Source of the DNA: a virus
Lineage: Duplodnaviria > Caudoviricetes
Length of the DNA: 64,000 bases
IMG/VR virus record: IMGVR_UViG_2728369355_000004
Reading direction: 5' to 3' (one strand)
Position 1 is the stretch's first letter, and each line of letters starts with the position of its first letter. Below are positions 20,522-63,341 of the stretch, piece by piece. A model generated the notes under the pieces. The model had not been told where the DNA came from. It saw only the letters and a list, made by a program, of their open reading frames with translations, and did not search any database. The translations under genes were made by a program, and so were the position numbers.

Positions 20522-20523
20522 AG

Positions 20524-27612: not shown

Positions 27613-27676
27613 GTAACGTTCCTCCTACACAGTATATATGTCCTAATATTACCATCGGTAGGAGATGCAGTAAACA

Positions 27677-29827: not shown

Positions 29828-29835
29828 AAGTCACC

Positions 29836-42715: not shown

Positions 42716-43729
42716 TTACGCCACTGTAGCGAAGATATGCCAGTTGACGTATTTCAGCCGCGGCAGCACAGTCGCACCATTGATGACTTGCCATTGATCA
42801 GGGTCACCTTGAATCAGTTTGGTGAGAGCAAATTTCCCAGTATGGCCTGTAAAAATATCCTCATAGTTATTTGGACTTGTAACAAGATCCATAATGGAGC
42901 CTGTCATGCCTTGACCGATGATAATTACGGCATTGTCAGGAATAAACGGGTAGAACGTCCCGGTATCATCAATGTAGCCACCATCGTAAACTTCATACTG
43001 AAGCCCGCTCAAATTTTGGCTGACAATTTCAGAAAGTGAGCCATCAGTTACAACATCCTTGCCATATGTGTATCTAATCAATTCGCGAATTTTCTCATTT
43101 TGCTTCATGTAGCTGTCTACCTTTTTATTGGCCAGAATCTTAACTCCTCTTGCACCACTTCCCCGGAATAGAAGGAGCCACTCATCCAAGTTTTTCAGCG
43201 GATCAGCGGTTGCCGTATTGCTCCAGAGCACATCTGCCGTTGGCTTGTTAGTGGCAGGGACGCCGTAATCAATCGTTCTGGCAGGTTTGTTTGCTGTTGC
43301 TGGAACGATAAGGTTGCCGGTCAGGGACTGCCAACGCATCCACTCAAAACGTGTCTCAAGCCGCATATTCAAGTTGACCAGTTGATCTACCATATACTCC
43401 TCTGCCCACTGTTGCTGCAAGTTATTACCTGGCTTTCTCAAAGTGGCAATCTTTTCACGATCAATAATGGACTTTTCTCTCCATTCCTGGTTCGTGAAGT
43501 TCATATGTTTCACCACAGGAGACGTATGAATTGGTGAAGGATCATTCAGCCCAGTAGCAGGTGTCATCCCCGTGTCGTCATAAGTAACGTCATATTCGAT
43601 GGTGAGTCCAAGTTCAGGTTTGAAGTCAACGCCATTTGTCAGTAGTTGAGCCCCGCGAAAACTGTTAATATCCGTCCGAATGTTCTGGACGACTTCCGTA
43701 AGGAAATATGGATCAAGTACGTTTGCCAT
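42716..43729 (-). CDS. major capsid protein (lambda gpE-like family)
   Basis: 337 aa; R.ETR.EWMRWQ.LTG...IDYGVP...ADPLK.LDEW. Confidence 0.88.
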   Translation of the reverse strand: MANVLDPYFLTEVVQNIRTDINSFRGAQLLTNGVDFKPELGLTIEYDVTYDDTGMTPATGLNDPSPIHTSPVVKHMNFTNQEWREKSIIDREKIATLRKPGNNLQQQWAEEYMVDQLVNLNMRLETRFEWMRWQSLTGNLIVPATANKPARTIDYGVPATNKPTADVLWSNTATADPLKNLDEWLLLFRGSGARGVKILANKKVDSYMKQNEKIRELIRYTYGKDVVTDGSLSEIVSQNLSGLQYEVYDGGYIDDTGTFYPFIPDNAVIIIGQGMTGSIMDLVTSPNNYEDIFTGHTGKFALTKLIQGDPDQWQVINGATVLPRLKYVNWHIFATVA

Positions 43730-45444: not shown

Positions 45445-46905
45445 TTATTCACCTCCTTCTGGTGGAGTCTGTACTTTATTTGAATCAGATTCAAGCTTTT
45501 TCATAAGCAGCGGGAGTAACTCAGCCGGAACTTTGGCATTAATACCAAGAGTCCAACGTATTTCCTCAGCAGCTTCCAACGGTGTGATGTAGAAATTCTT
45601 CTCCGCTGTGATGTAGTTATCGATCTTTGAACGTCGGTCACGTTCAATCTCATTTTCAGAGCGTAGATCAATGGGGAGGTAGTCAGCTTCAACTTTTGTT
45701 TGAGTCCCTTTTACTCTTGCGGACAACGAAAAAGCCCGCTGCCAGAAACGTTTGGTTACGCTCCGCGCGGACTCTACATTTTTGATATATATTTGAGTGT
45801 CAATTGAACTGTATGTTTCGGTTGATCCTTGATGCCTGGAAAGGATGGTGAGCAGCGTCTTGAGTGAAGTCGCCATTTGGGTATCAATAATATCGATGAG
45901 CTTTTTAATATCAATCATCGGCCCTGAATTACCGCCTTTGAGATATTCGACTTTTACAGTATCCCAGTGGACAAGGGCATCGTCTGGATTGAGTGAGTTG
46001 AAATGGTTTATCATCTCTTCCATTCGCTCTTTGAGCCATTTCTGTTGACCATCGGGATTACTTTTCAAGTTGTTCGGCATATTCTTCAGCATGATTTCTT
46101 CCAACATGGAGATATCAAGCCGTGGATATCCTTGGTTGTGCACTACTGCTTTTAGATCAGCCAGCACTTGGAGGTGGAAGAAAACTACTTGCAGCACTGG
46201 AAGCATGGGCGTTCGTCCATAAGGATCATCAGCCATCGGATCAAACTCTTCATATATGAATGTTGGTGTATCGATCTTTTTGTAATTGCCAAACCACTCT
46301 TCATTCGCGTTCCTTCGTGGGTTCTTGACATATTGCCACGGCGTGAGCCGGTTGGTATCCGGTTGCCTTCGGAACCAAATTAGAGCCGGATCAACCGGGA
46401 CGATATCAATTACATCGTTACATCGCTCATTCAGTACTACTTCCCCAGCACAAGCTCCGCGAACCATGATCATCATCCGCTGGATCGTGTCTAGTTTACC
46501 TAATGACCTTCCATGCTGGTATCCCGGCGAAGGTAGCGGTGTATTAAGCATAGCTTTGAGTTCATCCAGTACCCGTTGTCCGCCCTTATCTGCATTTCCG
46601 TTTGGCTTCTTAGCTGTAAATGTTAATTCGGTATCTCCCATACGTAAGTATGTGTATAGAGCATAGGATACGTCTGGATGAACAGATATTAGAAGTTCAA
46701 GTAACTCCTCTGCCGTGTAGCTCTGCAACTTAGTAAGGTCAATATTATGAGCGTGCTGATGTTTTTTAGGCAGCCAGTTAAATATACCCCACGGGTTAGC
46801 GTTATTAGGTACTGATGCTCTGCCCACACCCATCATCTGACGCTTTACCGCTGTTGGAAGAACAGCATTAGCAAATGAATATACAGCTCTATGATACCAT
46901 TTCAA
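45445..46905 (-). CDS. portal protein
   Basis: ~486 aa before the protease; DDPYGR.PM.P; TTG start after GGCGGTG. Confidence 0.8.
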   Translation of the reverse strand: MKWYHRAVYSFANAVLPTAVKRQMMGVGRASVPNNANPWGIFNWLPKKHQHAHNIDLTKLQSYTAEELLELLISVHPDVSYALYTYLRMGDTELTFTAKKPNGNADKGGQRVLDELKAMLNTPLPSPGYQHGRSLGKLDTIQRMMIMVRGACAGEVVLNERCNDVIDIVPVDPALIWFRRQPDTNRLTPWQYVKNPRRNANEEWFGNYKKIDTPTFIYEEFDPMADDPYGRTPMLPVLQVVFFHLQVLADLKAVVHNQGYPRLDISMLEEIMLKNMPNNLKSNPDGQQKWLKERMEEMINHFNSLNPDDALVHWDTVKVEYLKGGNSGPMIDIKKLIDIIDTQMATSLKTLLTILSRHQGSTETYSSIDTQIYIKNVESARSVTKRFWQRAFSLSARVKGTQTKVEADYLPIDLRSENEIERDRRSKIDNYITAEKNFYITPLEAAEEIRWTLGINAKVPAELLPLLMKKLESDSNKVQTPPEGGE

Positions 46906-46942
46906 GATTTCACCGCCTTTCATTGCAAACTTCTATGAATAA

Positions 46943-47114: not shown

Positions 47115-49541
47115 TTATTCTACAATTTCCAGATCCAAGTATTGTCCATCCCAAACATCAAGTTTATACTTTCCGGGCGGCAACTCGCCTGTAGAAATAA
47201 TAACTGGTTTATTTACTTCATCATCCGTAACAATTATCTTTTTACCCCAGTTTTCTGCGACCAAATCGTCGTAGTTACCTTGGCCTCCCCAAACAAATGT
47301 ATTTAGCAGATACACTTCTGAAACATCTGAAAGAGAGAATGTAATATCGCCTCCTTTTTTAACCTTTAATATATCCCCGATAGGTTGAATCATTGTAATT
47401 CTGACCGTTCTTCTATTTCCCCAGGTCTGAAATTCTTTATTGAATTCACCATTGGATGTAACCACAGCGTCTGTGACTAAACGGAAATTATAAACCAACC
47501 GATCCTCCAAATGTTTAGGCAATATAAAGACTTTATTGTCCTCAACTCTTACAGTCCCATTTTCCTTTGTGAAAGGCGTAAAAGGACTGTCACCAACAGA
47601 CCACTGAACGATATCTTCTGTTGTCTTCCCGTCCGCAAGCTGTAATAAGCGATTATAATCAAAAGAGAATTGATCAAGTCTATCCTTTCTTTCAGGATAT
47701 TGTACAAATATCGGTGACTGATCCAGAGGCTCGTTCTCATCCAAAACCGTTATTTCCTTGCTATGAAAGTTACTATTTTTGTCATAAACCGTCAGATCAA
47801 ACTCATAGTTTTTGGGATAATTCCAATGATTAATATCATATGTCGCGAAACTGACGGTTTTATTAGCCGGAACCTCCATTTTCAAAACCTCGCCGCTTTC
47901 GACACCCAACTCAAGGGATTGGAGATTACGGTAATCTATGAATTCACTTGAAAAGTAAGCAGTGCCATCATAAGAGCTAGTAAAATAAACGGACTCTCCG
48001 ACTGTTACTATTTTTTTAGGAACAGAAATGTTAGCGCCCCCATTATGCTCTGGTGCTTGAGGTGTATCATCTTTCTTGTCGTCACTTTTTTTATGATCAT
48101 CTTTTTTGGAATTATCGAATTCATTAGAGTTACTAGAAGAACCCCCACCGCCACCTGATGTTGTTGGCCCCTGTAATCCCAAAGTTTTTGACGAATCGCC
48201 TATTGTGACTTTAACATCACTACTTACCTTGTCGCCATTTGTCAGAGATTTAGGTTTTGTTTGAAAAGAAACATTTTCAGCATTAACTACGGCTTTATCA
48301 ACAGAACCTAATCCTATTACTTTGGCAGCAGCATTAAGAACTAACGAGAGAATAGAAGACTCTTTTGCTGTATCTATGGTTGTACCCGTAGCGTTATCAG
48401 CTACGTTTAATGCATCAATCTGTCCATTTGGGATATTTACATTAATAGCGAATGCTTCTACATTCACAGTGTGAAAATAACCTGTAAGGCTCACATTAGA
48501 TTTTGCGGGGAGCTCATTTGTTAGAGTAACTCGATCAACACTTGCTCCTTGTGAGACATCGAGGGCTGCGCCCGTCTTGATTTTTACTTCGCTAATGGAC
48601 GTTGCTCCTTCTGCCACCAAACGAACAGTTCCATCCACTTTGTTTACAATGATGCTAACCAGCATAGAATTGTTCAGATGAACGCTATGCTCTCCACCGC
48701 CGTAAACGTAGGTTTGACCGTGAATTTTAACATTTTTCAAGAATACGTCGCCGTTCCCGACGGCTTTCCCGATAATTAAATCACCCGCGATTTCCGTATT
48801 TTGAAGCGTTACACCCGTTGTGTTGATGATAACATTGCCTGCCTGCTTGTCGAGTCCAGTCGAAGGCCCATATGTTCCTGATTCTCCATACCAAGCACCA
48901 AAATGATTAACAGCACGATCAAGAATCGTAACCGCCTCAGCACGAGTCAACGATTTTTGTGGCTGAAATGTACCATTCTGGTAACCCTCAATAATACCGG
49001 CTGCAACTACAGCATTAACGGCCTTTTGGGACCAATTGTGCAGTGATGTGCTATCTTTAAAGGTTTTATTGGTATCAGAAGAAGAGATCTGAAGTAATTG
49101 GTTTACAGTAACAGCCGCTTCTTCTCTACTCAATACTTGCGTAGGACGAAAGCTACCATCTTCAAATCCTTTCATATATCCAGCATAAACTGCATCAGTA
49201 ACGGTTGAAGCAAACCAATCATCTTTATTCACATCGGTAAAAGATGCTGCTTGTCCTGGCTGAATTTGAAATGCACGATTTAGTAAAGCAGCCCATTCAC
49301 TTCTCGTAATCGGACGATTCGGTTCAAAACGAGCGTTTTCTACACCTGAAACCACACCTCGGTGGCTCCATTTTGTAACGTTATCCGTTGCCCAATGGTT
49401 CACCATATCCCCATAAGGTTGAGATACAGTAGAACTTTCTTCCTTTGTTACTTGGTGTGAACTATCGGCTGCGAATATGGGGCTAGCCCATACAGAGGTC
49501 GCTAAAATTCCAGCCGTGAAAACATTAACCCACTTCTTCAT
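47115..49541 (-). CDS. S-layer homology (3x SLH) surface protein, moron
   Basis: Signal peptide; three SLH repeats (FEPNRPITRSE, FRPTQVLSREE, FQPQKSLTRAE). Confidence 0.9.
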   Translation of the reverse strand: MKKWVNVFTAGILATSVWASPIFAADSSHQVTKEESSTVSQPYGDMVNHWATDNVTKWSHRGVVSGVENARFEPNRPITRSEWAALLNRAFQIQPGQAASFTDVNKDDWFASTVTDAVYAGYMKGFEDGSFRPTQVLSREEAAVTVNQLLQISSSDTNKTFKDSTSLHNWSQKAVNAVVAAGIIEGYQNGTFQPQKSLTRAEAVTILDRAVNHFGAWYGESGTYGPSTGLDKQAGNVIINTTGVTLQNTEIAGDLIIGKAVGNGDVFLKNVKIHGQTYVYGGGEHSVHLNNSMLVSIIVNKVDGTVRLVAEGATSISEVKIKTGAALDVSQGASVDRVTLTNELPAKSNVSLTGYFHTVNVEAFAINVNIPNGQIDALNVADNATGTTIDTAKESSILSLVLNAAAKVIGLGSVDKAVVNAENVSFQTKPKSLTNGDKVSSDVKVTIGDSSKTLGLQGPTTSGGGGGSSSNSNEFDNSKKDDHKKSDDKKDDTPQAPEHNGGANISVPKKIVTVGESVYFTSSYDGTAYFSSEFIDYRNLQSLELGVESGEVLKMEVPANKTVSFATYDINHWNYPKNYEFDLTVYDKNSNFHSKEITVLDENEPLDQSPIFVQYPERKDRLDQFSFDYNRLLQLADGKTTEDIVQWSVGDSPFTPFTKENGTVRVEDNKVFILPKHLEDRLVYNFRLVTDAVVTSNGEFNKEFQTWGNRRTVRITMIQPIGDILKVKKGGDITFSLSDVSEVYLLNTFVWGGQGNYDDLVAENWGKKIIVTDDEVNKPVIISTGELPPGKYKLDVWDGQYLDLEIVE

Positions 49542-49846
49542 CTTTTTTGTCCTCTCATTTATGTAGTGTTAAACCAAGACTATGTACCTAATATTTTAGG
49601 TATATAGAATCACTTACCTATTATTACAAGATTAATCGATGATGTCACTACTTTTTAATTCATAAGAGGATTTTTCTTGAATAAATATCAAAAGGAAGAC
49701 GTATATTCGTATACCAGTCAACATGATCACGAAACGCGTACATGCCTTCCCTGAACTCCTTACACATTTCGTTCATAAACAGAAGTAAAGCTTAAGACAT
49801 ACATTCAATCCTACAAAATCAAAAAAAGAGCCCCCGAAGGTTGCTC

Positions 49847-50050
49847 CTAATTGAGAAACAGCTTAGCCCAATAATATAAAATAACCAGAACACCTACACT
49901 TGCTAGGATTCCAGTTAATCTTTTTCCAAGTATTTTTTTAATGGGAATGCATACTACACACCAAAAGACTGAGGCTAAAATAAATATTAATAGCTTGTTT
50001 CCTCCTACAGCACCCCACATATCTACATTTGCACCTTCAAAAACATTCAA
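49847..50050 (-). CDS. small 2-TM membrane protein
   Basis: RBS GGGAGG; two hydrophobic helices. Confidence 0.55.
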   Translation of the reverse strand: MNVFEGANVDMWGAVGGNKLLIFILASVFWCVVCIPIKKILGKRLTGILASVGVLVILYYWAKLFLN

Positions 50051-50112
50051 AAAGATTCCTCCCTAGTTTTTGTCTAATTCCAAAATTATATATCCACTCC
50101 CTTTCTCGCTTT

Positions 50113-50703
50113 TTATCCTGCTTTCCTGGTTACAGAATTCTTTTGTTTAACCTGCATAATCATTTCAATAAGCTGCTCTCGGTTAATCAAGCGAACGTTA
50201 TTGGATCTTGCTAGTCTGTATGCTTGCTCAGTGTAATCGCTATTTGTCACGACCCATGCTGAAGATGCACGGTAATGTGCTACCGCACCGTAAACCTCCT
50301 GAACCGCTTTAAGCCCAACATTTTTACTGTACCGTTTCGCCTGAACTACGATACGCTGACCGTTTTTTGTAAGAACCAGATCGGCACCGTAATCTCCAGA
50401 AGCTTGTGTAACCTCAGCTTTGTATCCTTGAGCTCTGAACAGATGTCCTAAATATTTTTCGAATTGATGACCATCCATTTTATCAATTTCAGCAATTCCA
50501 GAATTACGTAGCCTTGTTGCAGCAGCCATTTGACGATAAAAGATAAATGCTATGACCATTGCTACTGCTACAAAAGATGCAAAAACAGAGGCACCGATTG
50601 AACCCGTAACTGAGTAGATAAAGAAAAACGGGGCTATTAGCGCAATCCCTGCAATAGCCTCTTCAATAGAATTTTTCTGCTTTCTTCTCCGTCTTCTAGC
50701 CAT
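50113..50703 (-). CDS. membrane-anchored Mrr-like restriction endonuclease domain protein
   Basis: Two TM, then FEKYL...GDYGADLV...VVQAKRY...AWVVTNS. Confidence 0.85.
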   Translation of the reverse strand: MARRRRRKQKNSIEEAIAGIALIAPFFFIYSVTGSIGASVFASFVAVAMVIAFIFYRQMAAATRLRNSGIAEIDKMDGHQFEKYLGHLFRAQGYKAEVTQASGDYGADLVLTKNGQRIVVQAKRYSKNVGLKAVQEVYGAVAHYRASSAWVVTNSDYTEQAYRLARSNNVRLINREQLIEMIMQVKQKNSVTRKAG

Positions 50704-50768
50704 TAATAATTCCCCCTTATTCTGTATATATCGTCAATAAAGTGATTGGAATTAATAGGTAGAAGGAA

Positions 50769-50859
50769 AGCACGCTGCGGAATTGAACCGCGCAAGGGTT
50801 CTGACCAGGCTGTTTCATGTTTCCGCTGGTTAACTGGTTCCTTGCCGCCTGCGCGTGCC
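50769..50859 (-). ncRNA. tRNA-like RNA (acceptor and T arm; non-canonical middle)
   Basis: GGCACGC/GCGTGCT 7-bp acceptor; GCGG-TTCAATT-CCGC T arm; long GCAAGG/CCTTGC and ACCAG/CTGGT stems. Confidence 0.5.
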
Positions 50860-50905
50860 GTAAAGCCCCGGAATGATCCGGGGAGCAATGTGGGGTCATG
50901 CTTAA

Positions 50906-51196
50906 TTACTTGAGCGCCAGAGCTGCTGCCTTAACGTGAGCTGGAATGGTGTATCCGTCCTTTTCCGTCAGGCTGCCATCAGCATGCACGGTTACTGCGA
51001 GCTGCTCGTACTCGTCGCCACTTGCTGGGATAACTGGATGATCGTATGCGTGTTGGCCTTCAAATTTAATGGCGGTACTGTACTCGCTCTTAGACTCTGC
51101 TGCTTCCTGTGTACTTTCAATGTGCAAGATTCTAAACCGATCCAAATATGCGTACCCACCGTTTCTTACTGCGCTTGCTTCTGTAGACATATTCAT
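50906..51196 (-). CDS. small phage protein, paralog of 57921..58175
   Basis: YAYLD..ILH...PVI...IP shared with 57921; RBS AGGAGG. Confidence 0.75.
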   Translation of the reverse strand: MNMSTEASAVRNGGYAYLDRFRILHIESTQEAAESKSEYSTAIKFEGQHAYDHPVIPASGDEYEQLAVTVHADGSLTEKDGYTIPAHVKAAALALK

Positions 51197-51413
51197 TTCC
51201 TCCTAATATGGTTTTATAGAGAAATCAAAAAAGGCCGGCACATTGGCCGACCTGATCACCGAGGCTCAAAAGCTAAGGTGTGTTCCTTATTTGATTTTCC
51301 ATGCTATAAATTTACCACATGAAAAGTCCAGTAGCAGTTCATAAAACGGTCAATTTCCAATCAAATAGCAGTCAACAAAAAAGGAACCCATTATCAGGCT
51401 CCTTATCAAAACA

Positions 51414-52238
51414 TTAAACTTTTAAGGCTTTTCTTAATGAATCTTTCATGTTACTAACAAAATTATCGCGTGTCTCAGGAGATAACTCCAAAAGAGAAAG
51501 ATAAGGATTTAAATCCTCCAATTCAACTAATAATAGTTCTCCCGAAGGTGTACGACATGCATCAACACGTTGAATACCACAATCAAGGTTATTCCAATCA
51601 ATGAATTTTTGAGCAAAGGACAAGTCTTGTTCAGTTGGTGCATATTCTTTCAATTCCCAGCGTTTATCTTTATCAGGCGCATTCATTGCATATTGAAAGT
51701 TCTTGTCAATGAAGTAAAATGATACTTCGTATTCAAAAGGAATAAACGGCTGGACCAGGATACTATGGTTCTCATTATCTATTTCATTAGTTACTTCCGC
51801 TTGAGAAATACGCTTCATGCCAATGGAATCGGCACCATCTTTTGGTTTAACAATGAAGTCTTCAACATTGGGTAGATGTTTAATATTTTCAATGGAATCT
51901 ATTGTAGGTATGACAGGGAAATTCGCGTTTGTTAACTCAAGCAAATACTCTTTTCCATTCATATCTGCCTTGCCATTAAATGAATTGTAAGTATTTAATC
52001 CCTTGCCCACTATTCTTTTTCGAAAAGCTTCATACTTTTCTTTAAAGTTCGCAACAGGGCCTGCATTTCGAAAGACGATTAAATCGATAACATCCTCGAA
52101 GCTCTCTATATCCTCCGGATGGCAAATTACCAAATCAAACTCTTCTCTAAGTTGGGAAGTGAGGTAGAGGTCTTCTTCATAATAGTTCCTACCTTTAGCT
52201 GGATAGTAAAGGTCTGTTACAAATAACAACTTCTTCAC
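51414..52238 (-). CDS. ATP-grasp (RimK/GshB-like) protein
   Basis: FPVIPT, IVKPKDGADS.G, LVQPFI, RVDA, LLVELE..NPYL. Confidence 0.75.
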   Translation of the reverse strand: MKKLLFVTDLYYPAKGRNYYEEDLYLTSQLREEFDLVICHPEDIESFEDVIDLIVFRNAGPVANFKEKYEAFRKRIVGKGLNTYNSFNGKADMNGKEYLLELTNANFPVIPTIDSIENIKHLPNVEDFIVKPKDGADSIGMKRISQAEVTNEIDNENHSILVQPFIPFEYEVSFYFIDKNFQYAMNAPDKDKRWELKEYAPTEQDLSFAQKFIDWNNLDCGIQRVDACRTPSGELLLVELEDLNPYLSLLELSPETRDNFVSNMKDSLRKALKV

Positions 52239-52854: not shown

Positions 52855-54315
52855 TTATCTTTTTACTGCCACACTACCTATTGAAGGAAGCATAATATGT
52901 GTATCTGGTTCCATTAAATATTCTCCGAATGTCAAAACAAAAGCGTCAGCTCTGTCTGGAGACTTAAGCCCACGCCTTTTCATATCTTTCTTACTTTCAA
53001 GCAGTATTTTCCCTTTACTGGTCATGTTCCATTTACGTGCTGTAAGTTGGGTTATAAGAACATCATCATCAGGCAATTGCAGAACGCTCACATCTCCATT
53101 TATAAAATTGCTCATATTCTGTTCTAATTGTTCCTTTATGGATGCCCACATTTCAGTAACCAGGTTCCCATAGTGCTCATCTAAAGAAGAAGAGCCATTG
53201 TTAATTGGAATGATCTCATATGGTAGCCCTTCTTCAGCTACGATTTCATTTAGTCGATCCGTTACTCCTCCACCTACACCGCTATCATCTACTCTTATTC
53301 TGATTCGATTTAAATATGGATGAGCTTTATGTAGCTCTTTAGCCAGGCTGATTACCCAACCAGCAGTAACCATTGTGTCTTTCTTGAAATGATGGTGTTC
53401 TCCTACAACTCTTGGCCCTATACCAGCAAACATTGAGGTTTCATCATCACCAAATCGTGCAACGTCAACGCCTATGGTTAGCGTATCTCCGCTGGGGTCC
53501 AGCTTCACTTCTTTAGCTGCAAATTCAGCCACTTCCAACGAAATAAATGTATCCGATTCTCCACGGGGGAATTCACCTTCAACCCGGACTCTCCATACAT
53601 CACTGCCTTCACCATACTTACGCTTGAGCATAGCGATATTATCCTTGCTTGTTCTTGGACTGTCCAAGCATGAAACCTTGCGTGTCTTATAATCCGCTCT
53701 GTCCTTATTGTGCGAATCATAAAAAACACCCGACGTTTTTGTCGGGTTGCCGCACATCAATATTTTATTGAACTCACCCGACAGAGTACCTAAAATGGCT
53801 TCCATGATTGGATCAGCAACACCCGATGCCTCATCCACAATAAATAGCATGTAGTCCTCGTGAAAGCCTTGCATATTCTCAGGCTTGGTAGCTGTACGAG
53901 CTGTAGCGAACCAGCGTTCCTCGTAGTTCTTCATGTAGATTTTGGTTTTAGTCCATTTAAGGATTCTTTTCAGCACTGGGCTTTTGGACTGCCATTTATT
54001 TATCTCAGCCCATAACACGTCATGTAGCTGCTGTCTTGTAGGAGCTGTACAAATCACTTTTGGATAAGGGAAGCAGGACAGAAACCAAAGGGCTGTTGCA
54101 GCTTCCAGCCCAGTTTTTCCTACGCCTTGACCTGAACGTACTGAAACGCGCGGATTATTAGCTAAATCCATTAGAGTGCTTGCCTGCCAATCATCAGGAT
54201 AGAACTTAAGCATCTCTTGGCAGAACAATGTGGGATTCTTGCGATACTCAGGAATCCGTTTCTTGAATGCTTGAAGCCTCCGTTTCGTCTCCGGTGAATC
54301 CTTCTGTTTCATCAC
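52855..54315 (-). CDS. terL: terminase large subunit
   Basis: Walker A SGQGVGKT, Walker B FIVDEASG, GNP, IGVDVARFGDD, SPDRADA. Confidence 0.95.
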   Translation of the reverse strand: MMKQKDSPETKRRLQAFKKRIPEYRKNPTLFCQEMLKFYPDDWQASTLMDLANNPRVSVRSGQGVGKTGLEAATALWFLSCFPYPKVICTAPTRQQLHDVLWAEINKWQSKSPVLKRILKWTKTKIYMKNYEERWFATARTATKPENMQGFHEDYMLFIVDEASGVADPIMEAILGTLSGEFNKILMCGNPTKTSGVFYDSHNKDRADYKTRKVSCLDSPRTSKDNIAMLKRKYGEGSDVWRVRVEGEFPRGESDTFISLEVAEFAAKEVKLDPSGDTLTIGVDVARFGDDETSMFAGIGPRVVGEHHHFKKDTMVTAGWVISLAKELHKAHPYLNRIRIRVDDSGVGGGVTDRLNEIVAEEGLPYEIIPINNGSSSLDEHYGNLVTEMWASIKEQLEQNMSNFINGDVSVLQLPDDDVLITQLTARKWNMTSKGKILLESKKDMKRRGLKSPDRADAFVLTFGEYLMEPDTHIMLPSIGSVAVKR

Positions 54316-55537
54316 CTACCACCGCCTCTACCCAATCGTCAATTAGATCATCCTCTGTATTGCCTTCTCCCGTAACCTTGGCCCTTTCGAGTTCAAGTTT
54401 CTCACGCTGAATCTTAAGTTTTTCGTCCTCAAGCATCCGTTTATGTTTGTCTGGGAGCAGATCCATGTATTTAGTCAGTACGTCCAAAGCCTTAGTTTTA
54501 TCGTGTAGTTTAACACTTACACCATCCTTGCCCTGCTTCACCTCTGAAACCAGAGTCCCATCAATTTCATCACTATTTTTGAAAGCTACAAAATTATATC
54601 TGTACTTCTTAGTGTCTCCAGTGTCTGGATCAAAGACTGGCTCACCTTCCAGTCCTAGAATATCTTCTTCCTTTTGACCAAACTCTACGTAATCAGTAAT
54701 GTCTGCAAAAGCGATCTTCATATATTCCATCAGCACACGTTGTGCATTCAACCCCACCTCGTGGATCATGGATTCCTTATGCTGTCGAATAATGTTTTGA
54801 ATTTCAACTTTCTTCAACAGAGCGAAACCAATTTGATAGGCGGTTTTCTTACTGTATCCCGCCGCAATCGCTGACCTGGTAGCATTGAAGTCTCGAAGGT
54901 ATTCATAAGTGAATATCCTTTGCTTAGGCGTTAATCCGTCCTCATCGGGAATTTCCGGTTCAGGTTCTTCAACAGTCGCTGGAACGCTCTGTACTTTTTT
55001 GGAACGTTCCATATTACCGGAGCGTTCCGGTATTTTTTTCGGAACGTTCCGTATTTCTGGAGCAGCGTCTTTTAGCTCTTTAGAGAGCGCATCAACTGTT
55101 AGCAGGGTAGCATATACCTCTCTTGGCTTATCACCTTGATATGTACCAACGAATTTACGCCGCTCCATTTCATCAATCAGTCGGGCCGCGCTGCTATAAC
55201 CTATCCTCATTCTTCTCTGCAATAAAGAAACCGAGGCTTGTTTGGCCTCGGCTATAATTTGGACAGCTTTTAGAAAAAGCTCATCCGAATATGATGTTGG
55301 TTCTTCATCTTTATTTGGAGGTTCCTTTTTTTGATTAGTTTCATTTTCATTAGAACGTTCCGTATGTTTTCCTTCCCCAACAATCAAACTCTCCCACTTA
55401 TCTTTAGCCTTCCATCCTCTTACCGTACCTTCAGATACACTAAGTTGAGAGGCTATTTCTGTGAGACGTATTTTGCCGGAACTGGCTTTGTATAAATCAA
55501 ATGCTTCGTCCCGTTTCGGATCTCTCTTTCGTCCCAT
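54248..55537 (-). CDS. terS: terminase small subunit with inserted FtsK gamma domain
   Basis: N-terminal HTH (IASQLSVSEGTVRGWKAKDKW); FtsK-gamma SVSLLQRRMRIGYSSAARLIDEME; Terminase_2 LTPKQRIF.YEYL.DFNAT.SAIAAGYS. Confidence 0.9.
   Translation of the reverse strand: MGRKRDPKRDEAFDLYKASSGKIRLTEIASQLSVSEGTVRGWKAKDKWESLIVGEGKHTERSNENETNQKKEPPNKDEEPTSYSDELFLKAVQIIAEAKQASVSLLQRRMRIGYSSAARLIDEMERRKFVGTYQGDKPREVYATLLTVDALSKELKDAAPEIRNVPKKIPERSGNMERSKKVQSVPATVEEPEPEIPDEDGLTPKQRIFTYEYLRDFNATRSAIAAGYSKKTAYQIGFALLKKVEIQNIIRQHKESMIHEVGLNAQRVLMEYMKIAFADITDYVEFGQKEEDILGLEGEPVFDPDTGDTKKYRYNFVAFKNSDEIDGTLVSEVKQGKDGVSVKLHDKTKALDVLTKYMDLLPDKHKRMLEDEKLKIQREKLELERAKVTGEGNTEDDLIDDWVEAVVGDETEGFTGDETEASSIQETDS
54981..55053. 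repeat. four GGAACGTTCC-like repeats at ~20-bp period inside terS (candidate pac/TerS sites)
   Basis: Copies at 54981, 55001, 55019 and 55041; fifth at 55353. Confidence 0.6.
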
Positions 55538-55780: not shown

Positions 55781-57406
55781 GTGGCTAAATTGATAAACAC
55801 ATCTAATTACGTGAAAACCTATACCACTTTAAGTGACTTAACAGGCGGGGAAAAAAATAGTAAGGAAGAAATTATTAAAAAAATTAGTAAAGTTCCACTT
55901 GGCGGCGTATTTATAATACTGTCACAAATGAATTCTTATGGGGGAGAAAACCTTGAAATAAGAAAGATATTTCTCGATTATCTTAAAAGCATAGGAAGCA
56001 AAGATCTATCTCAAGTTTTAGGTGATAGTTCATTATATTCAGAGCAAGGACTTTTAACATTATGGAAATGGTTTTTCGTTTATGGAAATTACAACTCAAT
56101 CAACGAAAGCGTAGATCCAATTATTGGAGTAAACCAGATCATTCATCTTTGTATTGCTGTTTCTGATTACCTGTGTGATGAGATATCGGAGGAGAAAGCA
56201 AATAATTATTTTTTCTCAAATTCTGTGTTTAACAATAAGTCAAATCTAGGTTCCGATTTAGCGAGGTCTTCTCTAATTTTTGGAGAAATAGCCCAAAATG
56301 AAAATAATTTTGTATCTAAGGACTTTATAGATATTAACAAGATGTTTTCTGATAAATATGGTTACTCAATACAGGATTATCTAGCTATAATTTATGGTCT
56401 TATTGCTGGTTTTCTAAATAAAGGAACTAGCAATGCCGCTATAAGATCTGATTGGAATAAATCTATTAATTATTTTGATAAAACTCATAATCCAGATTTA
56501 GGAAAGAAAATAATTGATGAAATTTCTACTTCATTTCTAGACGCAAAAATATGGGCTCAAACATCCATAAACAATCCATGGGATTATACTTTGTTTCGTC
56601 AGAAACCATTACTAAAATTAGAAAACGGAAATTTTTATCCTATAAATCTATCGCTGTTATTTGATAAAGTTTTAAGTGATTTATATTTTAAAATCAGAGA
56701 AACCTCCCCTAAAAACAGTACACAAATAATAAGTTTTTTCGGAAAATGTTTCGAAAAATACGTGGAGATAATAACCAAAGAAACACTTGGGAGCCGAAAG
56801 AACAATATTCCATATGAGTTTATTCCTGAATTTAGTTATGGAAATAAAAGATCTAATAAATCCCCTGATGCACTTATAAGAGTTAAAGACACTTTGTTAG
56901 CAGTAGAAGCAAAGGTTTATCGTTTAAAGATGGACTCACTTTTTGGAGTTAAACCTGCTATTGAGTCGGATACAAAGAGGTTTGCTATAGACCCTATAAA
57001 TCAAATGCAAAACCGATTAAGCGAATTGAAGACACGATCTCATCAAATTATGAATGGTATTTCCAAAATATATCTAATATCACTTACATTCGGGTACTAT
57101 CCTACGCTTAAACCTTTTGAAGAGATGATTGATCAGATGATTGATGCGTCTGATTTACCGATCAAGGGAATTATTCACATGGATATAGAAGAGTATGAAT
57201 TCTTTTTAGAGTTAATTTCTAGAAAAGCCTCGTCACCTGCATCTCATTATCTTGAGAACAAAAAACAACTTGCTCCTTATACTTCTTTTAAAAATTTCTT
57301 ATTTTCTAGCTCTTTGTATCCTAAAAGACCTCAATACATTAAAGATAAGATACTGGAACACAGTAATAATATGAGGGAGACATTGTTTCAAACTGCACTG
57401 CGCTAA
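55781..57406 (+). CDS. AT-rich moron with C-terminal PD-(D/E)xK nuclease domain
   Basis: FGKCFEKYV...SPDALI...LLAVEAK; opposite strand to the phage genes. Confidence 0.7.
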   Translation: MAKLINTSNYVKTYTTLSDLTGGEKNSKEEIIKKISKVPLGGVFIILSQMNSYGGENLEIRKIFLDYLKSIGSKDLSQVLGDSSLYSEQGLLTLWKWFFVYGNYNSINESVDPIIGVNQIIHLCIAVSDYLCDEISEEKANNYFFSNSVFNNKSNLGSDLARSSLIFGEIAQNENNFVSKDFIDINKMFSDKYGYSIQDYLAIIYGLIAGFLNKGTSNAAIRSDWNKSINYFDKTHNPDLGKKIIDEISTSFLDAKIWAQTSINNPWDYTLFRQKPLLKLENGNFYPINLSLLFDKVLSDLYFKIRETSPKNSTQIISFFGKCFEKYVEIITKETLGSRKNNIPYEFIPEFSYGNKRSNKSPDALIRVKDTLLAVEAKVYRLKMDSLFGVKPAIESDTKRFAIDPINQMQNRLSELKTRSHQIMNGISKIYLISLTFGYYPTLKPFEEMIDQMIDASDLPIKGIIHMDIEEYEFFLELISRKASSPASHYLENKKQLAPYTSFKNFLFSSSLYPKRPQYIKDKILEHSNNMRETLFQTALR

Positions 57407-57429
57407 TATTACTTTGAAGGCAAATAACA

Positions 57430-57910
57430 AAAGCCGATGGTTCTCAGGTTCTAACACGCTCATCGAGTGTGTAACCGATCAATCCATCAGCTGCTTTTTG
57501 ATGTGCTTATAACTTTGAGTACAGGCAGCATGTTATTAAGCGGTAATTTGTAACATGCTGCTACCGCTAATCCGCCATGCCTGCAATGGACCTTCAGTGG
57601 ACATCCTTCTTGATCCAGGTTTATATTACCCTCTGAGTCCTGTCTCCGATTTAGTTTTAAATACGCCCTAACCCTCCGTCATGCGCTTGCCACTGCCGCC
57701 CCCATATACATGCGGTATGGTTCCCAACGGGAATTATTTCACAGCGATTACCGTCAATCGCTATAGTCCGCATTACGTGCGGAACAATCTGCCGCCCTTA
57801 TTGATGGGGTGTTATTACCCTCTTTACGGCTGTCTCCAATTAGTTGTAGTTAGTTTCGATGTGGGCGAGGCGTGTATCGGGCCTTGCGTCTATTCCGCCA
57901 CCACATTTAA
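57430..57910 (-). ncRNA. putative large structured RNA or RNA cluster
   Basis: Dense stems, an H-type pseudoknot, internal direct repeats and a 5' mini-tRNA-like element; no credible CDS. Confidence 0.5.
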
Positions 57911-57920
57911 ATCTTAACGA

Positions 57921-58175
57921 TTACAGAAGTTGACCGGCTAGTGCTTTAAGGCCACTTGGTATAGCAATTTGTTTGCCATTATCCTCATTTCCGTTTACAT
58001 AAGCTGTGTCTTTGTCTGCATAATAGATTACACCTTCGCCGCCGATAACCGGAAAACCGCTTTCGTCGTAATCCAGATTTGTACCCACATACTTGCCATG
58101 CTTAACTGCTTCATCTACCAATGGATGGAGATGGAGAATTTTTTCCTTGTCCAAGTAAGCGTAACTATGTGCCAT
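57921..58175 (-). CDS. small phage protein, first gene of the late operon; paralog of 50906
   Basis: MAHSYAYLDKEKILHLH...FPVIG...IP; RBS AGGAGG. Confidence 0.75.
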   Translation of the reverse strand: MAHSYAYLDKEKILHLHPLVDEAVKHGKYVGTNLDYDESGFPVIGGEGVIYYADKDTAYVNGNEDNGKQIAIPSGLKALAGQLL

Positions 58176-58217
58176 GTTTATTGCCTCCTAAAATAGTTTT
58201 AATTTGTTCCTGAATAA

Positions 58218-58249
58218 AGTGTAAATCCTTTCTACTCCGTACCTACTAC
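58218..58249 (-). promoter_or_regulatory. late promoter (GTAGTA-N20-TACACT)
   Basis: Extra GTAG repeats nearby; similar AAAGGA..TAnnCTTTATTCA context to the portal promoter. Confidence 0.65.
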
Positions 58250-58307
58250 GGATTTGCTAGTTCCTACTATCAGCAGAAAATAAAGTGGTAGACTGAGCCT
58301 AGAAATT

Positions 58308-58387
58308 GAAAACAGCGACAACCAAGGACGAAAAAAAGTCCTAGACTGTCGCTGTTCCATTGAACTAACGTTTCCCGTTAGCGTAAT
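58308..58387 (-). repeat. cassette-boundary site downstream of the ATPase
   Basis: GCTAACGGGAAACGTTAGTTCAAT plus CGACAG..TTGTCG hairpin; homologous to 24428-24489. Confidence 0.7.
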
Positions 58388-58459
58388 CAGCGATAAATAA
58401 ATAAGCTCAAATTTTTTTAATATACGCGGCGGATATATTTTTGTTCAAATCTTGTTTCT

Positions 58460-59389
58460 CTACTTATTGTGTAGAAACAGCCCTTTATGCTTATTGAAAA
58501 AATCAAAGTACACTTTTGGGTTTTCTAATTCCCACCATTGCTTTATGTCGACTGGATTAGCTTCTAAATCATATATTTTTGTAAACTCCATCGCCAGTAA
58601 AAACGGTGAGTGCGTTGCAATGATAAATTGACATCCGCAATAGTGAGCCATTTCCTCTATCATTTTGACAAGTTCAAGCTGCATTTTAGGAGATAGACTG
58701 TTCTCCGGTTCATCCAAACAATATAATGTGTCATTTTTAAATTTGGAATTAAAATAACTCAGGGCTGTCTCCCCATTGCTGTTCAGTTTAATTTCGGTGC
58801 CGGCGACTCTGCGAATAAACTCCCTGCGTGAAATTGATTTTTTTCTTGAGAGCACCTGTAACCTCAATGCTTCATAATCATCCATGCTATTCATTTTCAC
58901 TGTATTGCCGAATTTCAGATTTCCCCATTCCGATCTTATATCTTCTGTGCTATCCACGATTTCATCGTTGTTTGTGCGGACTGTAAGCATATAATCAAAA
59001 ATATCGTCACTTGTGATTATCCTGCTTCCATTTGGAATTCGATGTTTAAATCCCTCGTCGTCAAGTCCAAGTTCAAATTTACAATGTTCAACATATGAAC
59101 TGAACAATTCACTTGAATTGAATGGTGCAATACGATTTAGTTCCAATTTATTCGCTATGAGATTTAGAAGTGTGCTTTTCCCCGAGCCGTTTCCTCCATA
59201 TAAAATTGTGATTTTTGAAAAGCTCAATTCGGAAAACCGATTTTTTGAGAAAATGCCACATGGGTAAGTTTCGTCGACATATCCAAACCTACCGCCATTG
59301 TATGCCATTCTTTGTTCTATCAATGAGGATTCTTCATCTATAGGCAATATGAATTTATCTAAATACATTTTCATTCCTCCGTAATTCAT
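58460..59389 (-). CDS. ABC/AAA_21-type ATPase moron
   Basis: Walker A GGNGSGKST, SNGE signature, Walker B YCLDEPE, IATHSP. Confidence 0.85.
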   Translation of the reverse strand: MNYGGMKMYLDKFILPIDEESSLIEQRMAYNGGRFGYVDETYPCGIFSKNRFSELSFSKITILYGGNGSGKSTLLNLIANKLELNRIAPFNSSELFSSYVEHCKFELGLDDEGFKHRIPNGSRIITSDDIFDYMLTVRTNNDEIVDSTEDIRSEWGNLKFGNTVKMNSMDDYEALRLQVLSRKKSISRREFIRRVAGTEIKLNSNGETALSYFNSKFKNDTLYCLDEPENSLSPKMQLELVKMIEEMAHYCGCQFIIATHSPFLLAMEFTKIYDLEANPVDIKQWWELENPKVYFDFFNKHKGLFLHNK

Positions 59390-59568
59390 CTAACCTGCTC
59401 TTATGTTTTCTCTTCCGTTTCAATTTGAAGTTTTCAACTAGTAAACCTCCCTCAATAATGTGGGAGCTTCCTCTTTTAAAAGCATTGATTGCTCAATCCC
59501 CTTCCATTCATAGTCGATGTAGGTATTATAGCAGACGAAATCTACTTATCTTATCTTGGTTGTGCTAA

Positions 59569-59587
59569 TCTGCCCGTTAGCTTAATG
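59569..59587 (-). repeat. cassette-boundary motif upstream of the ATPase
   Basis: CATTAAGCTAACGGGCAGA. Confidence 0.7.
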
Positions 59588-59673
59588 AAGCACCCTCAAG
59601 ACTATTACTTTATTTTCAGTCTAGAACTTTAGACACCTAAAGTTAAGACCGCAAAGGCTTAAGCCCTTACGGT

Positions 59674-60312
59674 CTAATTTACTTCTGGCATCCTCAGTCC
59701 GATTTCACCTTCCCGGTTACGCCCTCTCCCGTAGTCTATAACCACAAGATCCAAAGTGCGATTTATTTTCAGACTGTTTGCTATATTGGCAATGGCTCTG
59801 CGCCGCTTGTCCGCAAAAGTAGTTTCTGAAATACTTGGAATATCACTGCGATAACCGTTTTTCATGTACTGTTGTGCTTTGAGATATTTCATGCCATCTA
59901 GAAACAACAGTTTGGCTATCAATCCCTCGTGCTTGTCGCGCATATTGTTTACTGCAAATTTAACGTTATTTGTGATGAATTTATAAAATTTATAGTTCAC
60001 GTGACGCTGATCCTTGAGGATAACCGTATTAGCTGTCACATCTGCCGTTAATTCTTGCCCAGTTACCCGTTTAGCAACCGATCCTTCAGCCGCGAGTATA
60101 TCATAGGCCGACATTCCATTTTCAATCTGTTGGAGGGAATATTCATAATTTTTTATCACATCGACTAGATCAGCGTATTTGCCCAGCAACCATTTCGTTT
60201 TTCGAATATCATCTTGTTCAAGATCATCGAAAAAATTTACCTGGATTATCTTCTGAGTATCGGCAGAATCATCTTCTTTGCTACGTATAATTACAGACTG
60301 TTCGTTATCCAT
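59674..60312 (-). CDS. putative late transcription activator (RinA/ArpU-like)
   Basis: Position at the end of the early region; C-terminal HTH-like ISETTFADKRRRAIANIA. Confidence 0.6.
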   Translation of the reverse strand: MDNEQSVIIRSKEDDSADTQKIIQVNFFDDLEQDDIRKTKWLLGKYADLVDVIKNYEYSLQQIENGMSAYDILAAEGSVAKRVTGQELTADVTANTVILKDQRHVNYKFYKFITNNVKFAVNNMRDKHEGLIAKLLFLDGMKYLKAQQYMKNGYRSDIPSISETTFADKRRRAIANIANSLKINRTLDLVVIDYGRGRNREGEIGLRMPEVN

Positions 60313-63136: not shown

Positions 63137-63299
63137 CCTCGGCTTCCCAATGTTCAACATAATCAAACGATTCCTCCGTTTCATACCGCCCTTGGTAATC
63201 CCACGTGAAGGTTCCCTTATTAAAATCAATTGATGTTACCTGTACTGGCTCCGACTGGTTGATAAGTTTTGCCTTTAGCGATTCGATATTTATTTTCAT
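63129..63299 (-). CDS. hypothetical 56-aa protein
   Basis: Hand-translated MKINIESLKAKLINQSEPVQV...WEAEDV*; RBS AAGGAGGG. Confidence 0.55.
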   Translation of the reverse strand: MKINIESLKAKLINQSEPVQVTSIDFNKGTFTWDYQGRYETEESFDYVEHWEAEDV

Positions 63300-63341
63300 T
63301 GTGCTGTTCCCTCCTTCTTATCCCCTATGGGGCTATACTGT

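What the first reader, a model, noticed from the sequence alone, without database searches (positions are those of the whole stretch)
55105..55290. Terminase small subunit contains an FtsK/SpoIIIE gamma domain
Seen: DELFLKAVQIIAEAKQASVSLLQRRMRIGYSSAARLIDEMERRKFVGTYQGDKPREVY sits in frame between the N-terminal HTH and the Terminase_2 domain. Established: gamma is the winged helix that reads KOPS/SRS polarity motifs for chromosome translocases. Inference: packaging may be initiated or oriented at such motifs, which could bias transduction of host DNA or interfere with SpoIIIE/FtsK.
Basis: partly seen in the sequence, partly recalled or inferred. Interest (0 to 1): 0.72.

Follow-up and report, generated by a model that had tools for sequence, protein, structure and literature searches.

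The report
Prophage small terminase carrying FtsK-gamma domain
A prophage DNA-packaging protein in a Paenibacillus genome really does carry a DNA-reading domain copied from the host's chromosome pump, but this kind of fusion is already in print, it looks like an optional add-on, and its role is untested.

Summary
The minus-strand ORF 54248..55537 (429 aa) is a small terminase (TerS) with three folded modules: PF10668 HTH (residues 1-50), FtsK_gamma (84-143, E 3.8e-24) and Terminase_2 (202-376). The gamma module superposes on KOPS-bound FtsK gamma. It is about 69% identical to the host's own FtsK/SpoIIIE gamma and is under purifying selection.

The idea is not new. A gamma+Terminase_2 TerS was published in 2021 for Bacillus phages Sam46 and Sam112, with the same KOPS/SRS and transduction hypotheses (PMC8190038). 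The form here keeps an N-terminal HTH and is common in Paenibacillaceae prophages: 80 of the 120 listed homologues carry it.

Gamma is an optional module. Its presence changes at least 10 times on the TerS backbone tree. No SRS/KOPS-like octamers lie at terS or anywhere in the prophage.

A better pac candidate turned up. It is an array of 10-bp GGAACGTTCC palindromes inside terS, read in all three frames, present with or without gamma, and co-varying with the N-terminal HTH.

I read gamma as an accessory DNA-reading head. Its target is unknown.

The parts
54248..55537 (-). terS gene, 429 aa (P0001), including the stop codon
   Evidence: ORF list and translation. A purine-rich AAAGGGGTG lies 11-19 nt upstream of the ATG. 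PHROG phrog_2606 'terminase small subunit' at E 1e-85.
55388..55537 (-). N-terminal HTH, residues 1-50 (PF10668 Phage_terminase)
   Evidence: Pfam E 5.6e-19. pLDDT about 90. Contains the WKAKDKW helix, whose variants track the palindrome type.
55289..55387 (-). Linker 1, residues 51-83, low-confidence and fast-evolving
   Evidence: pLDDT below 50 for residues 56-81. Median dN/dS 0.87.
55109..55288 (-). FtsK_gamma winged helix, residues 84-143 (the finding)
   Evidence: Pfam E 3.8e-24. PDB phmmer hits. Foldseek match to 2ve9_A, TM 0.87, rmsd 1.2 A. 68.9% identical to the host FtsK gamma L001. Median dN/dS 0.125.
54935..55108 (-). Linker 2, residues 144-201. It has one helix (145-158) and is then disordered. 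Its DNA carries three of the four palindromes.
   Evidence: pLDDT below 50 for residues 159-191. Motif positions.
54410..54934 (-). Terminase_2 domain, residues 202-376: a G1P-type HTH (about 199-250) plus the oligomerisation core
   Evidence: Pfam E 7.3e-45. PDB phmmer: 3zqp_A SF6 TerS over residues 199-284, and the 2cmp/4zc3 DNA-binding domain. Foldseek 3zqq_C at E 7.9e-5.
54248..54409 (-). C-terminal helix and acidic tail, residues 377-429, overlapping the start of terL
   Evidence: Model helix 363-388, then pLDDT below 50. Overlaps the terL ORF at 54248..54315.
55352..55361 (.). Palindrome copy 1 (AGAACGTTCC on the plus strand, 1 mismatch), read as T-E-R-S, upstream of the gamma-coding segment
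55041..55050 (.). Palindrome copy 2 (GGAACGTTCC, exact), read in another frame as R-N-V-P
55019..55028 (.). Palindrome copy 3 (GGAGCGTTCC on the plus strand, 1 mismatch), read as P-E-R-S
55001..55010 (.). Palindrome copy 4 (GGAACGTTCC, exact), read as M-E-R-S
52855..54315 (-). Large terminase gene directly downstream of terS
   Evidence: PHROG phrog_5902 (3.1e-80) and phrog_2 'terminase large subunit' (5.3e-51). No Pfam terminase family scored above its cut-off.

Best explanation
This is the small terminase of a roughly 50 kb Paenibacillus polymyxa-type prophage. It has three DNA-binding heads on flexible tethers ahead of an SF6/SPP1 G1P-like ring-forming core.

The middle head is a gamma winged helix captured from a Paenibacillaceae FtsK/SpoIIIE translocase and inserted into the linker of an older HTH+Terminase_2 TerS.

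Inference: primary pac recognition belongs to the N-terminal HTH, reading an array of GGAACGTTCC palindromes that lies inside terS itself. Gamma is an optional accessory head. On the 9-10-mer ring it would be present at high local concentration and would add affinity for a short polar DNA word of the host-SRS type.

Shown here: the domain's identity, its fold, its host origin, purifying selection, its modular gain and loss, and the palindrome array.

Inferred only: that gamma binds DNA in this context, what it binds, and that the array is pac.
For: 1. Domain identity and fold.
2. Beads-on-a-string build: pLDDT is about 90 for residues 1-50, 84-158 and 200-250, and below 50 for 56-81 and 159-191.
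3. Host origin. The gamma is 68.9% identical to the host's own FtsK gamma and 59-75% identical to the other Paenibacillaceae host-translocase gammas (one 1362-aa-frame FtsK-like paralogue, L039, 46%), against 57.9% to Sam112. In the gamma tree, 42 Paenibacillus/Cohnella-type TerS gammas form a starred clade next to the host clade.
4. The recognition helix is kept. QRRxRIGY[S/T]RAARLI[D/E]xME recurs in nearly all of the 81 TerS gammas listed; P0085 is the one degenerate exception. At the three positions I recall as KOPS contacts in E. coli FtsK (N1296, R1300, E1303), the host has T/R/D and this TerS has S/R/D.
5. Selection. Median dN/dS is 0.125 for gamma and 0.149 for the N-terminal HTH, against 0.87 and 0.50 for the two linkers. 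This used 15 genes and 105 pairs, of which 32 were usable for gamma.
6. Optional module. On a tree of 102 TerS built without the linker and gamma columns, gamma presence needs 13 changes, 10 of them forced by starred branches. There are sister pairs with and without gamma: P0040/P0062 and P0085/P0108.
7. The pac candidate is independent of gamma. Matches to GGAACGTTCC with at most 1 mismatch:
- 7 in the window against 1.17 expected, 4 of them within 361 bp of terS.
- 37 inside terS against 1 in the flanks across 14 Paenibacillaceae loci.
- 143 in 75,035 bp of terS against 16 in 425,756 bp of flank across 80 IMG/VR loci.
- Read in frames 2, 1 and 0 in 80, 35 and 28 cases.
- Present in 25 of 25 gamma-bearing loci and 31 of 55 gamma-less loci.
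8. Lineages with other N-terminal helices carry other palindromes at the same place. WKQRD goes with TTGTACAA in 10 of 10 loci, WKCRD with TAGTACTA in 2 of 2, and WKN[QL]D with TAACGTTA in 2 of 2.
Against: No binding experiment exists for any TerS gamma.

This TerS has S where at least 90% of relatives have R at residue 116 of the recognition helix. One relative, P0085, has a degenerate helix. Either could mean changed or weakened binding.

I could not define the host's SRS. No octamer combined skew of at least 0.8 with over-representation z of at least 4. A 'host-like target' therefore rests only on residue similarity.

The two candidate words are absent from the prophage. If specificity really is host-like, gamma has no site on its own genome, which fits rival 2 better.

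In Sam46 the mapped pac cut lies about 4.5 kb upstream of terS, not inside it (PMC8190038). A pac inside terS is therefore not a rule for gamma-bearing terminases.

The palindrome array could be an operator rather than pac. Related loci are kin and some are duplicates (L079 = L051, L082 = L053), so the counts overstate independence. The dN/dS estimates are crude because many pairs are saturated at synonymous sites.
Confidence: 0.5

Rival explanations
1. Gamma is the primary pac reader. Packaging is initiated or oriented at KOPS/SRS-like polar octamers on the phage genome. This is the first reader's view, and also the first hypothesis in the Sam46/Sam112 paper.
For: Gamma domains read polar 7-8 bp words and load FtsK directionally (PMC3384302 passages; PMC8190038 passages). 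The recognition helix is conserved. A palindromic array cannot by itself set a packaging direction, so a polar reader would be useful; this last point is inference.
Against: There is no GNGNAGGG near terS. GAG[AC]AGGG occurs 0 times in the prophage. The density of SRS-like words around terS is similar in gamma-bearing loci (1.31 per kb on the sense strand, 18 loci) and gamma-less loci (0.99 per kb, 18 loci). Gamma-less sister TerS exist with the same HTH and the same palindromes. The Sam46 authors found no B. subtilis SRS or P. aeruginosa KOPS in their phages, only 2 E. coli-type and 15 GAGAAG words.
Confidence: 0.12
2. Gamma targets the host chromosome. It would bind host SRS-type words and so tether terminase to the nucleoid, raise generalised or lateral transduction, or compete with SpoIIIE/FtsK.
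For: Gamma is host-derived and keeps the host-type residues at the recalled contact positions. The candidate host words are absent from the prophage but number 490 in the genome. GAGAAGGG (139 leading, 31 lagging) and GAGCAGGG (274, 46) keep their leading-strand bias in head-on ORFs (23/9 and 40/17). terS is transcribed toward the terminus on the leading strand, so packaging in that direction would meet such words in the permissive orientation (the last step is inference).
Against: There is no evidence that TerS acts away from pac or travels with the motor. A benefit to the phage is unclear. The host SRS is not established. The domain is dispensable in sister lineages.
Confidence: 0.2
3. Gamma works as a protein-protein adaptor rather than a DNA reader. 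For example, it could contact a tyrosine recombinase as FtsK gamma contacts XerD, or modulate an ATPase.
For: A solved XerD-gamma fusion complex (5dcf) is among the sequence hits. The prophage encodes its own tyrosine integrase.
Against: The most conserved part of the TerS gammas is the DNA-recognition helix. No test of any partner was made here. TerL is not an FtsK-type motor.
Confidence: 0.08
4. Gamma is a neutral passenger left by illegitimate recombination with host ftsK/spoIIIE.
For: Frequent loss. One degenerate copy, P0085.
Against: Median dN/dS of 0.125 against 0.5-0.9 in the adjoining linkers. The domain is retained in 80 of the 120 listed homologues, down to 46% overall identity.
Confidence: 0.05

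Closest known systems
TerS of Bacillus phages vB_BcM_Sam46 / Sam112 (FtsK_gamma + Terminase_2; Kazantseva et al. 2021, PMC8190038; GenBank product 'FtsK gamma domain-containing small terminase subunit')
   Same: Gamma is fused in one ORF ahead of Terminase_2. Residues 85-250 here align colinearly with residues 11-155 of Sam112 TerS: 34% identity over 166 columns, E 6e-22. Both hits are confirmed by Pfam. The host is a spore-forming Bacillota. The paper puts forward the same KOPS/SRS-pac and transduction hypotheses.
   Different: In Sam46/Sam112, gamma is N-terminal and there is no PF10668 HTH. Here gamma is internal, behind a retained HTH. The Sam112 gamma does not group with these TerS gammas in the tree. 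No GGAACGTTCC-type motif occurs in Sam112 terS. The Sam46 pac cut was mapped about 4.5 kb upstream of terS.
Gamma-less PF10668 + Terminase_2 small terminases (phrog_2606; named 'PBSX phage terminase small subunit' or xtmA in some records)
   Same: Same N-terminal HTH, same Terminase_2 core, and the same palindrome array in the linker-coding DNA. Some are sister to gamma-bearing proteins.
   Different: They lack the roughly 85-110 residue insert of gamma plus linker.
SF6 / SPP1 G1P small terminase (PDB 3zqp/3zqq, 2cmp, 4zc3)
   Same: An HTH DNA-binding domain plus an oligomerisation core. phmmer 3.2e-8 over residues 199-284. Foldseek E 7.9e-5 to 3zqq_C, and TM 0.86 to the 2cmp target.
   Different: G1P starts at its HTH. 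The protein here has about 200 extra N-terminal residues carrying two further DNA-binding modules.
FtsK/SpoIIIE gamma subdomain (PF09397; PDB 2j5p, 2ve8/2ve9)
   Same: Sequence and fold. The recognition helix is of the host type.
   Different: It is not attached to an FtsK alpha/beta motor and there is no PF01580 in this protein. At the recalled KOPS-contact positions it has S/R/D rather than N/R/E.

Membership tests
FtsK_gamma domain (PF09397) | Scores above the Pfam gathering threshold over nearly the whole profile | tested here: met
   84.6 bits against 30.6; profile positions 3-62 of 63
FtsK_gamma domain (PF09397) | Winged-helix fold superposable on solved gamma domains | tested here: met
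   2ve9_A: TM 0.87 normalised to the target, rmsd 1.2 A, 58 columns, 40% identity. Model pLDDT 85-93 in blocks 81-150.
FtsK_gamma domain (PF09397) | Residues whose mutation makes E. coli FtsK KOPS-blind (N1296, R1300, E1303; recalled from memory, source paper not held) | tested here: inconclusive
   The aligned residues are S115, R119 and D122 (alignment). The host FtsK has T/R/D. One residue is identical and two are conservative changes of the host type.
FtsK_gamma domain (PF09397) | Sequence-specific binding to a polar 7-8 bp word | not testable with these tools
   Needs EMSA, SELEX or ITC
FtsK/SpoIIIE DNA translocase (whole protein) | An FtsK alpha/beta ATPase motor (PF01580) N-terminal to gamma | tested here: not met
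   No PF01580 hit in P0001. Some database records nevertheless name homologues 'cell division protein FtsK', which is a misnomer.
Small terminase, Terminase_2 (PF03592; SF6/SPP1 G1P type) | Terminase_2 profile match and a G1P-like DNA-binding domain | tested here: met
   E 7.3e-45; 3zqp, 2cmp and 4zc3
Small terminase, Terminase_2 (PF03592; SF6/SPP1 G1P type) | Gene lies immediately upstream of the large terminase in a head-packaging module | tested here: met
   terL at 52855..54315 overlaps the terS end. Portal at 45445..46923 and major head protein at 42716..43729.
Small terminase, Terminase_2 (PF03592; SF6/SPP1 G1P type) | Ring oligomer that binds pac and activates TerL | not tested
   No multimer prediction or experiment was done
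Sam46-type 'FtsK gamma domain-containing small terminase' | Gamma and Terminase_2 in one polypeptide | tested here: met
Sam46-type 'FtsK gamma domain-containing small terminase' | Gamma is the N-terminal and only extra DNA-binding module | tested here: not met
   A PF10668 HTH precedes gamma here. It is absent from Sam112 TerS.

The most novel reading that the evidence does not exclude
The pac array of this TerS family is made of symmetric palindromes, which cannot by themselves set a direction. Gamma could be a captured polarity reader. In that reading it gives the terminase a sense of direction and lets it recognise the host's SRS-type words. These point toward the terminus on the same strand as terS. 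Prophages carrying gamma would then package and transduce host DNA directionally (lateral-transduction-like) more efficiently than their gamma-less sisters.
Probability: 0.1. Interest if true: 0.75.

Novelty: new variant of a known kind. Interest (0 to 1): 0.42.

Why it matters
How pac-type phages choose DNA decides what they transduce. A terminase that carries the host translocase's own DNA-reading head is a natural experiment in re-targeting packaging.

The case is tractable because close sister terminases with and without gamma exist in nature. The palindrome array, which co-varies with the N-terminal HTH, gives a concrete and testable pac candidate for a large family of Bacillota prophage terminases.

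The basic fusion and its hypotheses are already published, so the value lies in these two additions, not in the fusion itself.

Tried and rejected
1. Defining the host KOPS/SRS from strand skew did not work.
- The raw skew ranking is dominated by coding bias.
- No octamer has skew of at least 0.8 together with Markov over-representation z of at least 4.
- Splitting by crude ORF orientation leaves GAGAAGGG and GAGCAGGG as plausible but not outstanding.

2. Looking for SRS/KOPS-like words at terS or in the prophage found none or no enrichment.

3. Prevalence in species-representative genomes.
- All 151 of 151 Paenibacillaceae genomes have a host gamma, and 10 have more than one match.
- In the 9 other genomes with extra matches, the TerS query hit gamma only in frames of 831-1362 aa and Terminase_2 only in frames of 206-237 aa, so none is a fusion.
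- 13 weaker matches were not listed.

4. The gamma hits in 'Bacteriophage sp.' faecal contigs are not terminases. In the 3 records checked, of the many such records among the 60 listed rows, the gamma-bearing frames are 551-907 aa (two of about 900 aa; the third runs off the contig end) and end with gamma, like FtsK.

5. No att direct repeat of 14 bp or more was found between the integrase end and window positions about 9,900-29,900. The left prophage end is not fixed.

6. Sequencing runs: the holders are kept as contigs only, and the raw-read runs are soil metagenomes from the same study as one holder. I did not lay reads, so no packaging termini could be read.

7. Literature.
- A search for 'GGAACGTTCC' returned 12 papers, none on phage packaging by title or abstract start.
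- Searches for gamma plus terminase found only the Sam46/Sam112 paper as relevant.
- The two primary FtsK gamma papers were not held.
- Supplements were not requested. Figure 3 and Tables S1/S2 of PMC8190038 were not seen.

Full report
**What is there.**
It is residues 85-142 of a 429-aa ORF on the minus strand, window 54248..55537, which puts it at 55112..55285. The stated 55105-55290 brackets it loosely and gives no strand.

Pfam finds three domains:
- Phage_terminase PF10668, residues 1-50, E 5.6e-19.
- FtsK_gamma PF09397, residues 84-143, E 3.8e-24, 84.6 bits against a cut-off of 30.6.
- Terminase_2 PF03592, residues 202-376, E 7.3e-45.

The gene overlaps the start of a large-terminase gene (52855..54315). 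It sits upstream of portal and major-head genes. The gene is therefore terS.

**Fold.**
An AlphaFold2 model built on 56 homologues shows three confident compact modules. pLDDT is about 90 for residues 1-50, 84-158 and 200-250. They are joined by low-confidence linkers (56-81 and 159-191, pLDDT below 50), followed by a moderately confident core.

Foldseek places the middle module on KOPS-bound FtsK gamma (2ve9_A: TM 0.87 to the target, rmsd 1.2 A, 58 columns). It places the third module on the SF6 G1P DNA-binding domain (2cmp, TM 0.86) and the core on the SF6 small terminase (3zqq_C, E 7.9e-5). The sequence hits to PDB agree.

The protein thus carries three DNA-binding-type heads in series ahead of a G1P-like ring core.

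**Already known.**
Two records in the phage collection are annotated as gamma-domain-containing small terminases: Bacillus phages Sam112 and Sam46 (rows H45 and H49 of the 60 listed, out of 234 matching records).

Their paper (PMC8190038; passages read) describes an N-terminal FtsK_gamma fused to Terminase_2. It proposes KOPS/SRS-like terminase sites and mispackaging of host DNA. It reports headful packaging with a pac cut about 4.5 kb upstream of terS.

Three full-text searches found no other relevant paper.

**How this one differs.**
Sam112 TerS has gamma and Terminase_2 only. The protein here keeps a PF10668 HTH in front.

Residues 85-250 align colinearly with Sam112 residues 11-155 (34% identity). 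The gamma-linker-Terminase_2 unit is thus shared, but the Sam112 gamma does not group with these TerS gammas.

The three-domain form is common in databases. Of the 120 best of 1829 homologues, 80 list PF09397 (my count). blastp finds a gamma match in 81 of 120, including truncated gene calls. They come from Paenibacillus, Brevibacillus and Cohnella. The records name them 'terminase small subunit' or, wrongly, 'cell division protein FtsK'.

Ten full-length copies were found in named Paenibacillus and Cohnella genomes. A further 25 of 80 IMG/VR relatives carry gamma.

The form is patchy. Among 151 species-representative Paenibacillaceae genomes, only the window's own genome showed the fusion. 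The 9 other genomes with extra gamma matches had none.

**Origin and selection.**
The own genome has two gamma domains, this one and the one in an 894-aa FtsK/SpoIIIE frame. The two are 68.9% identical over 61 residues. The other Paenibacillaceae host-translocase gammas are 59-75% identical to the TerS gamma (one 1362-aa-frame FtsK-like paralogue, L039, 46%), and Sam112's is 57.9%.

In a 57-column tree (157 rows, poorly resolved), TerS gammas fall into two starred clades. One has 42 Paenibacillus/Cohnella-type rows next to the host clade. The other has 34 Brevibacillus-type rows. One origin for these two clades is not excluded.

The recognition helix is nearly constant across TerS gammas, with one degenerate exception, P0085. 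This particular copy has S116 where at least 90% of relatives have R.

Crude Nei-Gojobori estimates over 15 genes give these median dN/dS values:

| Region | Median dN/dS |
|---|---|
| Gamma | 0.125 (32 of 105 pairs usable; the rest saturated) |
| N-terminal HTH | 0.149 |
| Linker 1 | 0.87 |
| Linker 2 | 0.50 |

Gamma is a working domain, not debris.

**Gamma is optional.**
An alignment shows a clean 85-110 residue indel between the HTH and the downstream linker.

I built a tree of 102 TerS without the linker and gamma columns. Eighteen of the 120 proteins were dropped for lacking the N-terminal signature; they are listed. On this tree, gamma presence needs 13 changes, at least 10 of them forced by starred branches. 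There are sister pairs with and without gamma.

**A better pac candidate.**
Inside terS there are four copies of the 10-bp palindrome GGAACGTTCC, two exact and two with one mismatch. They lie at 55352, 55041, 55019 and 55001, spaced 18-22 bp apart downstream of gamma.
- The window holds 7 such matches against 1.17 expected.
- The genome holds 6 exact copies.
- This is the only triplet of GAACGTTC within 600 bp in 5.76 Mb.

The copies are read as ERS in one frame and as RNVP in another. Counts in related loci:
- 14 Paenibacillaceae loci: 37 matches inside terS against 1 in the flanks.
- 80 IMG/VR loci: 143 in 75 kb of terS against 16 in 426 kb of flank.
- All three frames are used (80, 35 and 28 cases).
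- Matches occur in 25 of 25 gamma-bearing loci and 31 of 55 gamma-less loci.

Relatives without this word carry other palindromes at the same place, and the palindrome type tracks the N-terminal helix:
- WK[A/N/S]KD goes with GAACGTTC. It is the top palindromic 8-mer in 47 of 63 loci, and none of the 63 carries the other types.
- WKQRD goes with TTGTACAA in 10 of 10.
- WKCRD goes with TAGTACTA in 2 of 2.
- WKN[Q/L]D goes with TAACGTTA in 2 of 2.

These figures cover the 78 of 95 loci that have a recognisable signature. The loci are kin and some are duplicates, so this is suggestive covariation, not a statistical test.

I infer a DNA-level cis site, most likely the TerS binding part of pac, read by the N-terminal HTH. 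The gamma-coding insert sits within or beside this array. An operator function is the main alternative.

**The KOPS/SRS idea tested.**
The origin is at about 2.856 Mb (dnaA; skew minimum) and the skew maximum is near coordinate 0. The window therefore lies about 0.23-0.29 Mb from the terminus. The minus strand, which carries terS, is the leading strand there.

No octamer stands out as the host SRS. GAGAAGGG (139 leading, 31 lagging) and GAGCAGGG (274, 46) keep their bias in head-on ORFs. These two words occur 0 times in the window (5.45 expected) and 0 times in the ~50 kb prophage (4.3 expected; Poisson p about 0.01 by my arithmetic).

GNGNAGGG occurs 9 times in the window, never near terS. 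SRS-like words around terS are no commoner in gamma-bearing than in gamma-less loci.

Gamma's target is therefore not visible on the phage. Either its specificity differs, or it reads host DNA.

**Verdict.**
This is a true gamma domain in a true TerS. It is a variant of a published kind, widespread and optional, and probably an accessory DNA-reading head. It is probably not the pac reader. Nothing about its function has been shown experimentally, here or in print.

Noticed in passing
window 55001-55361 (inside terS); also loci L051-L063 and L076-L155: An array of 10-bp GGAACGTTCC palindromes in the linker-coding DNA of terS. It is read in three different frames across relatives and is about 50-fold denser in terS than in the flanks. 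Lineages whose N-terminal HTH helix differs carry other palindromes (TTGTACAA, TAGTACTA, TAACGTTA types) at the same place. It is a candidate pac/TerS-binding site. A literature search for the word found no packaging paper.
   Followed up: yes
window 47115-52238 (minus strand), between terL and the portal gene: Three inserted genes split the packaging module. They are a 274-aa protein with no family hit, a 196-aa Mrr_cat restriction-endonuclease-like protein (Pfam 1.9e-38; PADLOC ZorD-nuclease and type IV REase-like), and an 808-aa protein with three SLH domains.
   Followed up: partly
window 55781-60312: Directly upstream of terS lie three genes. A divergent 541-aa ORF has no Pfam, PHROG or PADLOC hit. 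It is followed by a 309-aa ABC/AAA_21-type ATPase resembling PtuA/AriA defence ATPases (PADLOC 5.6e-20), then a 212-aa protein with only one weak PHROG hit (phrog_21810, unknown function, E 1e-07) and no Pfam or PADLOC hit. This may be a prophage-borne defence island.
   Followed up: partly
L074 (genome 292060-312000, beyond the window's right end): The prophage continues past the window. It carries a DNA polymerase III beta-clamp homologue, a DnaC/IstB-like loader, replication protein O, a ParB_N protein, a Cro/CI-type HTH and a tyrosine integrase (L074:10304-11491). The host glnA follows. No att repeat was found.
   Followed up: partly
protein P0146 (database hit): A 379-aa protein combining Mrr_cat / NA-iREase1 nuclease domains with an FtsK_gamma domain. 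PHROGs holds at least 8 further phage families whose profiles match the gamma stretch. Gamma is thus a recurrent movable module in phage and defence proteins.
   Followed up: no
window 52855-54315: The large terminase matches PHROG terminase families, but no Pfam terminase family scores above its cut-off. Only weak AAA_30/AAA_19 hits appear.
   Followed up: no
window 22072-25729 and 62384-63998: Other mobile-element genes are present: two Bro-N proteins, one with an added KilAC antirepressor domain; a tyrosinase-domain protein on the opposite strand (23170-24324); an N6/N4 DNA methylase; and an HNH-containing ORF that runs off the window's right end (open at its 5' end).
   Followed up: no
whole genome G000: GAGAAGGG and GAGCAGGG (together 413 leading, 77 lagging) keep their leading-strand bias inside head-on ORFs and in intergenic DNA. 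They are candidate SRS/KOPS words for this Paenibacillus, but not clear outliers.
   Followed up: partly
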